The notes: generated by a model not told the origin, from the letters alone. Shown: positions 63,759 through 63,884, numbered from the stretch's first letter. The stretch: DNA of 64,000 bases from a virus (IMGVR_UViG_3300021255_001602:64001-128000); one strand, 5' to 3'. A program made the numbers and translations.

Positions 63759-63884
63759 ATCGTATGGAATGGATTCGAACCACTGACCCGCTGACCCATA
63801 ACTTGAATGTTTCGCTGTCATAATCACGAACATGATTAATGAATTCTTTTTTCAGCTGCTCTCCCAACTGAGCTACCATACGAT
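63759..63884 (-). ncRNA. tRNA-like RNA E9 with anticodon loop replaced by a 57-nt module
   Basis: ATCGTATGG/CCATACGAT; AGCTCAGTTGGGAGAGC; GCTGA[57 nt]TCAGC; AATCATG/CGTGATT + ACAGCGAA; AGTGG-TTCGAAT-CCATT. Confidence 0.8.

What the first reader, a model, noticed from the sequence alone, without database searches (positions are those of the whole stretch)
63759..63884. Complete tRNA cloverleaf with the anticodon loop swapped for a 57-nt module
Seen: all four stems are intact, including GCTGA/TCAGC, but 63795-63851 replaces the 7-nt loop and holds an extended hairpin + ACAGCGAA. No anticodon is recoverable. The insertion site differs from that in E4 and E2. Inference: independent grafting events into different tRNAs imply selection for the chimeras.
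Basis: partly seen in the sequence, partly recalled or inferred. Interest (0 to 1): 0.7.

Follow-up and report, generated by a model that had tools for sequence, protein, structure and literature searches.

The report
tRNA-shaped partner RNA of phage Ro60-like protein
A gut phage encodes an RNA with a complete tRNA body but, in place of a working anticodon loop, a conserved "handle" that always travels with a neighbouring Ro60-like ring protein, so it is most likely a tRNA mimic that forms a particle with that protein, not a tRNA with an intron.

Summary
On the minus strand at 63882-63760 lies a full tRNA cloverleaf (Rfam tRNA, 47 bits) with 57 nt between the two halves of an intact anticodon stem.

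- **The insert is structured.** It has a short helix P1, a 7-bp hairpin P2, then UG-ACAGCGAA.
- **It belongs to a family.** A covariance model built only from copies in other phages finds it (26 bits, E 1.6e-4). The same model finds three more copies in the window.
- **It is not a decoder.** Deleting 50 nt leaves a formal loop UUAUGGG (anticodon AUG). Four close relatives from metagenomes keep the body, P1, P2 and motif. Exactly this stretch varies in them in length and sequence: UGGGG, GUAAG, UAGGGG. One relative has compensatory changes in the T stem.
- **The handle has other contexts.** It also closes stand-alone small RNAs and one circularly permuted tRNA that hits the Rfam YrlA model.
- **It travels with one gene.** That gene encodes a DUF2828/vWA protein whose predicted fold matches Ro60.

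Best reading (0.7): a Y-RNA-like tRNA mimic in a new topology, bound by the Ro60-like protein. Binding is inferred, not shown. An intron is unlikely for this copy.

Earlier notes of this scan report the same RNA-protein family on at least 8 other genomes.

The parts
63760..63882 (-). Whole tRNA-shaped RNA gene (123 nt, discriminator A at 63760, no encoded CCA)
   Evidence: Rfam tRNA model, 47.0 bits, model positions 1-71 of 71; anatomy by script
63876..63882 (-). Acceptor stem 5' strand CGUAUGG (pairs with 63767-63761 CCAUACG)
   Evidence: 7/7 pairs, invariant in 5 sequences
63858..63873 (-). D arm GCUC-AGUUGGGA-GAGC
63852..63856 (-). Anticodon-stem 5' strand GCUGA (pairs with UCAGC at 63794-63790)
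   Evidence: The four pairs scored stay paired in all 5 relatives, one G-C to G-U change; the fifth (A31-U39) lies in the A-run and was not scored
63847..63851 (-). J1: A-run joining the anticodon stem to P1; its length differs among relatives
63843..63846 (-). P1 5' strand GAAU (pairs with AUUC at 63808-63805); P1 has a different sequence in every other chimera (GCAAA/UUUGC, GAAAGA/UCUUUC, UGUA/UACA and others)
63821..63838 (-). P2, the handle helix closed by a loop: UAAUCAU-GUUC-GUGAUUA
   Evidence: Leave-out model R1 hit 63839-63810; 5 of 7 pairs covary across 17 copies from other phages
63811..63820 (-). UG + ACAGCGAA, the single-stranded signature motif just 3' of the handle helix
63805..63808 (-). 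P1 3' strand AUUC
63795..63804 (-). J2: AAGUUAUGGG, the hypervariable joint where an anticodon loop would be (UGGGG, GUAAG, UAGGGG in relatives)
   Evidence: 8 of 10 columns variable against 65 of 324 elsewhere, Fisher p 1.2e-4
63790..63794 (-). Anticodon-stem 3' strand UCAGC
63768..63784 (-). T arm AGUGG-UUCGAAU-CCAUU
   Evidence: L137 has GAUAG/CUAUC: two pairs changed on both sides and one on one side, all still paired
63761..63767 (-). Acceptor stem 3' strand CCAUACG
63888..63942 (-). Neighbour: stand-alone handle RNA (GGGACUC-AU-ACAGCAAA...GAGUCC-UG), 5 nt upstream of the tRNA-shaped RNA
63675..63755 (-). Neighbour: stand-alone handle element (GUGACAC-AC-ACAGCAAA...GUGUCAU-G) forming the 5' leader of the protein gene; ribosome-binding site AAGGAG at 63671-63666
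62148..63656 (-). Ro60-like protein gene (502 aa; DUF2828 + DUF7788 + vWA with the metal-site residues D312, S314, S316, T377, D409 invariant)
   Evidence: Pfam, PHROG 850 'RNA-binding protein', alignment, AlphaFold2 model with Foldseek top 13 PDB hits all Ro60/TROVE

Best explanation
The locus encodes a non-decoding, tRNA-bodied small RNA of about 123 nt, plus CCA if the host adds it.

**Architecture.** The anticodon stem is capped by a portable protein-binding handle in place of a 7-nt loop. The handle is a 7-bp helix followed by UG-ACAGCGAA and is carried on a short helix, P1.

**Proposed steps (all inferred).**
1. The RNA is transcribed from a consensus sigma-70 promoter just beyond the window end. 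It forms part of one precursor in this order: tRNA-Gln, handle RNA, handle RNA, this RNA, handle RNA/5' leader, then the Ro60-like ORF.
2. The tRNA body gives host RNase P and the 3' processing enzymes their cut sites. This releases and stabilises the RNA and also frees its neighbours.
3. The handle is bound by the 502-aa Ro60-like (DUF2828/vWA) protein encoded 104 nt downstream, by analogy with Ro60 binding the stem and 5'-strand motif of Y RNAs.
4. In the particle the tRNA-shaped part acts like the tRNA-like domain of bacterial YrlA. It presents a tRNA surface (elbow, acceptor end) to enzymes that handle tRNA. This would tether or gate the ring protein, or bait host factors that attack tRNA during infection.

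**Shown.** The fold, the family membership of the handle, its linkage to the gene, the Ro60-like predicted fold, and the lack of a conserved anticodon.

**Not shown.** Binding, processing and the downstream function.
For: 1. **Full tRNA body with the handle between the anticodon-stem halves**.
2. **Family membership.** Model R1, built only from 17 copies in other phages, finds four hits in the window. All are on the gene's strand, and this one scores 26.2 bits, E 1.6e-4; the next best hit is 13 bits. In those 17 copies, 5 of 7 helix pairs covary (score 0.651 against 0.285 in shuffles, 0 of 500 reach it).
3. **No conserved anticodon.** Four relatives (L137-L140) keep the body, P1, P2 and motif. 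The would-be anticodon stretch differs in length (5-7 nt) and sequence, and the A-run varies as well. Two other chimeras with an intact stem, L005:3680-3799 and L003:3561-3677, also lack a loop with U33.
4. **Body under structural selection.** 99.4% of cells are paired, and L137 has compensatory T-stem changes.
5. **The handle occurs where nothing can be spliced.** These are stand-alone RNAs and a circularly permuted tRNA, L007:3600-3714. That element hits Rfam YrlA at 39.8 bits, E 2.7e-5.
6. **Linkage to the gene.** An unbiased pattern scan of IMG/VR gave 36 loci from other records with a tRNA-embedded handle. The DUF2828 gene lies just downstream on the same strand in 29 and elsewhere on the record in 3. 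In 2 the locus stops within 400 nt past the handle and no gene is found on the record. The last 2 are short loci that were not checked. Loci whose protein is only 39-47% identical also carry handle arrays beside the gene, and their motif variants track the protein lineage, for example UCAGCAAU...AG in L008/L009.
7. **Protein fold.** The model has pLDDT 79.5 and pTM 0.78. The top 13 PDB matches are all full-length Ro60/TROVE, including a phage Ro60.
8. **Some sister chimeras cannot be ordinary decoders.** One has anticodon GCU on a class I body. Another body carries GUG in L001 but GGG in L004.
9. **Unspliced sister in RNA.** An RNA-library contig from the source sample matches 61125-61376 exactly and holds the sister chimera unspliced.
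Against: - No binding, processing or size data exist for this RNA.
- The link to the protein rests on synteny, much of it within one phage lineage (61-90% identity).
- The Ro60 likeness is fold-level only (TM about 0.5). There is no Pfam TROVE match and no PDB sequence match.
- In this copy, and in L027 (CU|49 nt|GUGGA), deleting the insert leaves a canonical 7-nt loop, which is what an intron would look like.
- RNA-library cover of the finding itself comes only from contigs of a relative in one bovine run, and such libraries can hold DNA.
- The proposed fold (-24.1 kcal/mol) is not the computed minimum (-34.1). This is usual for tRNAs but gives no support.
Confidence: 0.7

Rival explanations
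1. A real tRNA gene interrupted by a new kind of small (about 50-nt) intron. An unknown endonuclease and ligase, perhaps guided by the Ro60-like protein, would remove the intron to give a decoder, here tRNA-His-like with anticodon AUG.
For: Deleting 50 nt leaves a 5-bp stem and a 7-nt loop with U33 and G37. In many sister chimeras one unique deletion restores a perfect anticodon arm: His GUG, Thr GGU, Pro UGG, Gln UUG, Glu UUC. In L027 the loop itself is split, CU|GUGGA.
Against: Four close relatives have no common loop after any deletion, while the 'intron' is conserved. That is the reverse of an exon/intron pattern. The handle also occurs in RNAs with no exons to join. No contig joins across any module, and one contig carries the sister chimera unspliced. 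No bulge-helix-bulge motif is present and the insert is far too small for group I (by inspection). No RtcB or Rnl2-type ligase is found in the 140.5-kb phage record; the Rnl1 search was uninformative because its control rang nowhere, and a host ligase could serve in any case. Some sister 'tRNAs' have anticodon/body combinations that cannot be charged normally.
Confidence: 0.08
2. A decayed tRNA gene that picked up a repeat. It would be kept only as punctuation, giving RNase P and 3'-end cut sites that free the flanking handle RNAs and the 5' end of the mRNA. The insert itself would have no role in this copy.
For: Units in the array are only 3-8 nt apart. The joint J2 and the A-run drift freely.
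Against: P1, P2 and the motif are as well kept as the tRNA body in all relatives. The only changes are G/A in the motif and one G-to-U just before it. The same chimeric design recurs in distant lineages.
Confidence: 0.12
3. A mobile DNA element, such as a miniature hairpin-end transposon or homing remnant, that inserts into tRNA genes, with no function at the RNA level.
For: The P2 region is an imperfect DNA palindrome. Insertion leaves no target duplication, and sites vary.
Against: In the loci examined nearly all copies lie on the strand of the Ro60-like gene and next to it. P1 and P2 covary as RNA helices, with G-U pairs. No transposase is linked. Bodies stay under structural selection.
Confidence: 0.04

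Closest known systems
Bacterial and phage Y RNAs of the YrlA type with Ro60/Rsr (Chen et al. 2014, PMC4201824; Rfam RF02553)
   Same: A small RNA encoded next to, and on the same strand as, a ring-shaped Ro60-fold protein with a vWA domain. It joins a protein-binding stem with a short single-stranded motif to a tRNA-like domain with D and T arms. The protein site sits at the anticodon-stem end of that domain. A relative in L007 hits the YrlA model over its T arm, closed acceptor and D arm.
   Different: The protein is DUF2828, not Pfam TROVE; the likeness is seen only in the predicted fold. The motif is ACAGCRA after the helix, not GNCGAAN0-1G. The topology is reversed: here the RNA ends are the normal tRNA ends and the handle is closed by a loop, whereas in YrlA the ends form the Ro-binding stem and the acceptor is closed. 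This element gives no YrlA hit at E up to 10.
Class I RNAs of dictyostelid social amoebae (Rfam RF01414; Kjellin et al. 2021, PMC7919456)
   Same: The stand-alone neighbours of this RNA share the Class I layout. It is a 6-7-bp stem joining the two ends, a motif next to the 5' strand (phage CUUACAGCAA, Rfam consensus CCUUACAGCAA), a variable middle, and an end CUG(U). Two copies hit RF01414 at E 0.0016 and 0.0034 for that family alone on the phage genome. The finding carries the same helix + motif.
   Different: Scores (21-25 bits) are below the family cut-off of 41.5. In the finding the stem is closed by a loop and buried in a tRNA body. The known Class I binder is an RRM protein, Rnp1A. Whether dictyostelids have a DUF2828 protein was not testable here.
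Intron-bearing tRNA genes (bacterial group I introns in anticodon loops; archaeal bulge-helix-bulge introns at varied positions)
   Same: Extra sequence within the anticodon arm of an otherwise complete tRNA gene. Positions vary among genes, as in Crenarchaeota.
   Different: At 50 nt it is too small for group I, and there is no bulge-helix-bulge motif. The insert is conserved while the 'exon' loop is not. The same module occurs outside tRNAs.
Engineered tRNA scaffolds for expressing recombinant RNA (Ponchon and Dardel approach; from my own knowledge, not checked here)
   Same: A foreign structured RNA replaces the anticodon loop of a tRNA, whose body gives processing and stability.
   Different: That is a laboratory design. 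This would be a natural counterpart under selection in phages.

Membership tests
tRNA (Rfam RF00005) | Cloverleaf with acceptor, D and T arms and conserved D/T-loop residues | tested here: met
   47.0 bits against a gathering score of 29, model positions 1-71; all stems paired
tRNA (Rfam RF00005) | 7-nt anticodon loop with a stable anticodon (decoding function) | tested here: not met
   57 nt lie between the stem halves. The formal loop UUAUGGG of this copy is replaced by UGGGG, GUAAG or UAGGGG in four close relatives
YrlA / Y RNA (RF02553) | Encoded beside, and on the same strand as, a Ro60 (TROVE + vWA) gene | tested here: inconclusive
   The gene lies 104 nt downstream on the same strand. 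Its predicted fold matches Ro60, but the sequence family is DUF2828, not TROVE
YrlA / Y RNA (RF02553) | tRNA-like domain with T and D arms | tested here: met
YrlA / Y RNA (RF02553) | 5' and 3' ends pair to form the Ro-binding stem, and the acceptor-like stem is closed by a loop | tested here: not met
   The topology is reversed here. The permuted form does exist in a relative, L007:3600-3714
YrlA / Y RNA (RF02553) | GNCGAAN0-1G motif near the 5' end (Chen 2014) | tested here: not met
   The motif here is ACAGCGAA; ACAGCAA in most copies
YrlA / Y RNA (RF02553) | Match to the family's covariance model | tested here: not met
   No YrlA hit at E up to 10 on 57500-64000
YrlA / Y RNA (RF02553) | Physical binding to the Ro60 protein | not testable with these tools
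   Needs pull-down or gel-shift
Handle RNAs linked to DUF2828 (family defined here, model R1) | 7-bp helix, 2 nt, then (A)CAGCRA on the strand of a DUF2828 gene | tested here: met
   Leave-out model: 26.2 bits, E 1.6e-4; gene adjacent
Archaeal-type tRNA intron | Bulge-helix-bulge motif at the exon-intron borders | tested here: not met
   By inspection of the sequence: the start of the insert pairs with its own 3' part (P1), not with the downstream exon, and there are no 3-nt bulges 4 bp apart
Group I intron in a tRNA | Catalytic core of 200 nt or more (P3-P9) | tested here: not met
   The insert is 50-57 nt, and there is no Rfam intron hit
Dictyostelid Class I RNA (RF01414) | Terminal stem joining the 5' and 3' ends, with the 11-nt motif next to the 5' strand | tested here: not met
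   In this element the helix is closed by a loop. Its stand-alone neighbours have the layout but score 21-25 bits, below the 41.5 cut-off

The most novel reading that the evidence does not exclude
The helix + ACAGCAA handle carried by this RNA would be the same protein-binding tag as the stem + 11-nt motif of the 'Class I' RNAs, which are thought to be unique to Dictyostelium. DUF2828/vWA proteins with handle RNAs would then be a second, Ro60-like RNA-protein system spanning phages, giant-virus-like contigs and eukaryotes. The tRNA-embedded form would show that the tag is portable and can be grafted onto any RNA body.
Probability: 0.3. Interest if true: 0.85.

Novelty: new variant of a known kind. 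Interest (0 to 1): 0.62.

Why it matters
Ro60 with Y RNAs is a conserved but poorly understood RNA-surveillance particle. Its bacterial Y RNAs mimic tRNA for reasons that are still unknown.

This locus adds three things:
- a very large, unstudied sister family of Ro60-fold proteins (about 8,000 or more protein clusters, the cap of the search; I found no paper linking DUF2828 to RNA);
- a distinct RNA handle;
- a natural experiment in topology, because the same handle is found at RNA ends, around a permuted tRNA, and, as here, capping the anticodon stem of a normally ended tRNA body.

That makes two questions directly testable: what the handle binds, and what the tRNA surface is for. Answers could explain why phages place such RNAs inside their tRNA arrays, for example to deal with host enzymes that cut or modify tRNA. 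It would also be a natural counterpart of the engineered tRNA scaffold.

Tried and rejected
- **Intron as my first reading (60%).** I dropped it for this copy after the four relatives showed no conserved loop.
- **Hammerhead-like reading of CUGA...CGAAAC.** Rejected. The core does not fit (no G8, no A15.1-U16.1 pair), and CUGA lies in the tRNA stem, not in the conserved module.
- **Bulge-helix-bulge and IS200/605-type hairpin element.** Rejected by inspection and by the strand and location bias.
- **Brute-force deletion with default ARAGORN.** It gave 55-289 'solutions' per gene, too permissive to use. I replaced it with a strict enumeration.
- **IMG/VR scan with the 5' half of the body.** Nothing found.
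- **Scan for the ACAGCGAA variant.** It returned two chance matches, L111 and L136, neither in a tRNA.
- **My reading of L005:3601-3729 as a permuted tRNA.** This was wrong. It is two tandem chimeras whose handles have the same sequence.
- **RNA runs.** The two RNA libraries from the source sample have no cover on 63569-64000. No contig skips any module. Contigs cannot show ends, strand or absence.
- **Protein databases.** No PDB sequence match, no NCBIfam match and no PADLOC match for the protein.
- **RNA ligases.** No RtcB or Rnl2-type family in the phage record. The Rnl1 search is uninformative because its control rang nowhere.
- **Dictyostelium link.** The Avesson 2011 pull-down paper is not in the library, and no tool here reaches eukaryote proteomes.
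- **Complex prediction.** Not used; it does not take RNA.

Full report
**1. Observation**

Read on the minus strand, 63882-63760 is CGUAUGG-UA-GCUC-AGUUGGGA-GAGC-A-GCUGA-[57 nt]-UCAGC-GGGUC-AGUGG-UUCGAAU-CCAUU-CCAUACG-A. The Rfam tRNA model aligns it end to end at 47.0 bits (E 3.7e-9 on 351 nt, 6.8e-8 on 6.5 kb). It places 57 nt where the 7-nt loop should be. Default ARAGORN and Rfam's default filters miss it. The window is part of a 140.5-kb phage record, about 36% G+C, with a minus-strand tRNA array.

**2. Anatomy of the insert**

- A-run J1: 63851-63847.
- P1: GAAU (63846-63843) pairs with AUUC (63808-63805).
- P2: UAAUCAU-GUUC-GUGAUUA (63838-63821).
- Motif: UG-ACAGCGAA (63820-63811).
- J2: AAGUUAUGGG (63804-63795).

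ACAGCRAA is over-represented in the window, with 15 copies against 4.3 expected.

I built a covariance model, R1, from 17 hairpin-closed handles of other phages only. In that set 5 of 7 helix pairs change on both sides. The covariation score is 0.651 against 0.285 in shuffles, and 0 of 500 shuffles reach it. The rows were picked for pairing, so only the covariation counts, not the 100% paired.

R1 finds four hits in the 64-kb window, all on the minus strand:

| Window place | Bits |
|---|---|
| 61134-61105 | 32.8 |
| 61356-61327 | 32.0 |
| 63839-63810 (the finding) | 26.2 (E 1.6e-4) |
| 62012-61981 | 21.8 |

The next best hit scores 13 bits.

**3. Is it a tRNA with an intron?**

This was my first reading. 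ARAGORN with its intron option calls tRNA-His(AUG) with a 50-nt intron. A strict enumeration gives GCUGA + (U/A)UAUGGG + UCAGC. In sister chimeras a unique deletion restores a perfect anticodon arm, with the insert at 28/29 or 29/30:

- His GUG in L001 and L002
- Thr GGU in L003 and in the window at 61389-61273
- Pro UGG in L063 and L008
- Gln UUG in L006
- Glu UUC in L005

In L027 the loop itself is split, CU|49 nt|GUGGA.

The decisive test was a metagenome scan with the 5' half of the body, which gave four close relatives, L137-L140. They keep the body, P1, P2 and the motif, but the would-be loop differs in each:

| Sequence | Would-be loop |
|---|---|
| window | UUAUGGG |
| L137 | UGGGG |
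| L138, L139 | GUAAG |
| L140 | UAGGGG |

The A-run also varies in length. Eight of the 10 J2 columns vary, against 65 of 324 elsewhere in the aligned 360 nt (Fisher p 1.2e-4). No deletion gives a common 7-nt loop with U33. So the 'exon' drifts while the 'intron' is held, which is the opposite of an intron.

The body is under structural selection. 99.4% of cells are paired. L137 changes three T-stem pairs, two of them on both sides, and keeps all of them paired.

Two other chimeras with an intact anticodon stem, L005:3680-3799 and L003:3561-3677, also lack a canonical loop. Some sister 'tRNAs' cannot be ordinary decoders. One has anticodon GCU on a class I body, and one body carries GUG in L001 but GGG in L004.

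**4. What the handle goes with**

The same helix + motif closes stand-alone RNAs in the window: 63942-63888, 63755-63675, 61556-61494, 60598-60533 and 61270-61184. There the motif follows the 5' strand, and the 3' strand ends in UG. The embedded form is therefore a circular permutation of the stand-alone form.

In 14 loci, 57 of 94 distinct ACAGCRA sites have a helix of at least 6 bp in one of the two topologies. At random positions the figure is 840 of 5,600.

An unbiased pattern scan of IMG/VR gave 36 loci from other records with a tRNA-embedded handle:

- In 29, a homologue of the ORF at 63656-62148 lies just downstream on the same strand.
- In 3, it lies elsewhere on the same record.
- In 2, the locus stops within 400 nt past the handle, and no gene is found on the record.
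- 2 are short loci that I did not check.

Most of these are one phage lineage (61-90% protein identity), so this alone is weak evidence. However, loci whose protein is only 39-47% identical (L005-L011) also carry arrays of stand-alone and tRNA-embedded handles beside the gene. Their helix sequences differ (AAGAYNC...GNRUCUUG), and L008/L009 have a variant motif (UCAGCAAU...AG). L013, a giant-virus-like contig whose protein is 28% identical, has tandem hairpin + CCAGCAAA units next to its gene.

L007:3600-3714 is a truly permuted tRNA inside a handle. Its order is anticodon arm, variable region, T arm, acceptor closed as CCCUGGC-UCAAU-GCCAGGG, then D arm. It hits Rfam YrlA at 39.8 bits, E 2.7e-5, which is below that family's cut-off of 69.

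**5. The protein**

The 502-aa product matches Pfam DUF2828 + DUF7788, with a weak VWA_2 hit, and PHROG 850 'RNA-binding protein'. It has no PDB sequence match.

An AlphaFold2 model from a 12-sequence alignment has pLDDT 79.5 and pTM 0.78. By Foldseek its 13 best PDB matches are all full-length Ro60/TROVE. They include Xenopus and human Ro60, Deinococcus Rsr and a Thermus-phage Ro60, at E 1e-5 to 5e-4 and TM about 0.5. vWA-only matches follow. The metal-site residues of the vWA domain are invariant.

The family is very large. 7,992 of the 8,000 candidates scored pass E 1e-5, and 8,000 is the cap of the search.

**6. Transcription and RNA evidence**

A 12-of-12 consensus sigma-70 promoter lies just beyond the window end, at L135:1906-1879, minus strand. 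The order downstream is tRNA-Gln, a handle RNA, the handle RNA at 63942-63888, the finding, the handle/leader element, and the ORF. Spacers between adjacent RNA units are mostly 3-8 nt.

Only contigs of RNA libraries were available.

- A bovine run holds contigs of a relative over 63470-63794 and 63829-63986.
- A run from the source sample has an exact 252-nt contig over 61125-61376, which carries the sister Thr chimera unspliced.
- No contig skips a module.
- The deepest cover in all four runs is at 61950-62150 and at 61505-61557.

These data show that unspliced forms are present. They cannot show that spliced forms are absent. No RtcB or Rnl2-type ligase is encoded in the phage record.

**7. 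Reading**

The best-supported explanation is a tRNA-bodied Y-like RNA. The tRNA body would supply processing, stability and a tRNA surface. The handle would tether the Ro60-like protein at the anticodon-stem end, the same spatial arrangement as in YrlA but with the strand connectivity reversed.

Binding, processing and the role of the particle are inferred. The role could be tethering to tRNA enzymes, gating of the ring, or bait for host factors that attack tRNA. Confidence is 0.7. Rivals are punctuation-only relic (0.12), intron (0.08) and mobile DNA insert (0.04).

**8. Comparison with the known, and novelty**

The closest system is Ro60/Rsr with YrlA (Chen 2014; phage ROT/TROVE proteins with tRNA-like partners are mentioned in PMC7824862). 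This element fails three YrlA membership features: topology, the GNCGAA motif, and a hit to the family model. The protein is not a Pfam TROVE member. I therefore file it as a new variant of a known kind, not as a YrlA.

The stand-alone neighbours resemble dictyostelid Class I RNAs in layout and motif. That lead is untested. I found no paper that links DUF2828 to RNA partners.

Earlier notes of this scan describe the same protein-handle pairing on this window and on at least 8 other genomes. They agree with the reading reached here but are not independent evidence.

Noticed in passing
window 61900-62150 (minus strand), module at 62012-61981: A non-tRNA RNA just 3' of the Ro60-like stop codon carries a hairpin-closed handle (R1, 21.8 bits). 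It has the deepest cover in all four RNA libraries laid (12-24). One bovine contig replaces 75 nt (62013-62089) with 7 other letters.
   Followed up: partly
window 63942-63888, 61556-61494, 60598-60533 (minus strand): Stand-alone handle RNAs give weak hits to Rfam Dicty_Class_I_RNA (21-25 bits; for that family alone on the phage genome, E 0.0016 and 0.0034). They share its layout: a terminal 6-7-bp stem, CUUACAGCAA next to the 5' strand, and an end CUG. Class I RNAs are described as unique to Dictyostelia.
   Followed up: partly
L135:1906-1879 (minus strand; just beyond the window end, about 64217-64190 in window numbering): A perfect 12/12 sigma-70 consensus promoter lies here. It is followed by tRNA-Gln(UUG), then one more stand-alone handle RNA that runs across the window end (about 64060-63969), then the units inside the window.
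   Followed up: partly
window 61480-61393 (minus strand): ARAGORN's 88-nt 'tRNA-Thr(tgt)' is another chimera. A handle-like hairpin (CAAUCAUG-UAAA-GUGAUUG) sits where the anticodon arm should be and is followed by UUCUGCAAAA, so the anticodon call looks spurious.
   Followed up: no
window 61168-61052 (minus strand): A class II-like tRNA body (3-bp D stem, large D loop) carries the best-scoring handle (32.8 bits). No deletion gave a canonical anticodon arm.
   Followed up: partly
window 60598-60533 against tRNA-Lys at 59715-59640: A stand-alone handle RNA holds a 21-nt stretch 95% identical to the anticodon arm of the phage's own tRNA-Lys(UUU). Other stand-alone copies, here and in L005-L011, display hairpins resembling anticodon arms of Ser UGA, Cys GCA, Thr GGU, Asn GUU and Ile GAU.
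   Followed up: partly
L014, L021, L034 and about 10 more loci (e.g. L014:5147-5118 region): One chimera type has a class I body with a G-1:C73 pair and, after in-silico deletion, the loop AUGCUAA (anticodon GCU, a serine anticodon that in bacteria needs a long variable arm). L001 and L004 share one body but have GUG and GGG.
   Followed up: partly
L013:40-115 (minus strand), giant-virus-like metagenome contig: Tandem hairpin + CCAGCAAA units lie next to a DUF2828 gene whose product is only 28% identical to the window's protein. The pairing may therefore reach viruses of eukaryotes.
   Followed up: no
window 59034-59375 (minus strand): A stand-alone 113-aa protein consisting only of the NAD+-binding Ia domain of DNA ligase (Pfam Nlig-Ia, E 2e-29) lies inside the tRNA array.
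   Followed up: no
L003:7384-7568 (+): A sub-threshold Rfam hit to HEARO RNA (47.5 bits, cut-off 83) lies in a related phage, downstream of the Ro60-like gene.
   Followed up: no
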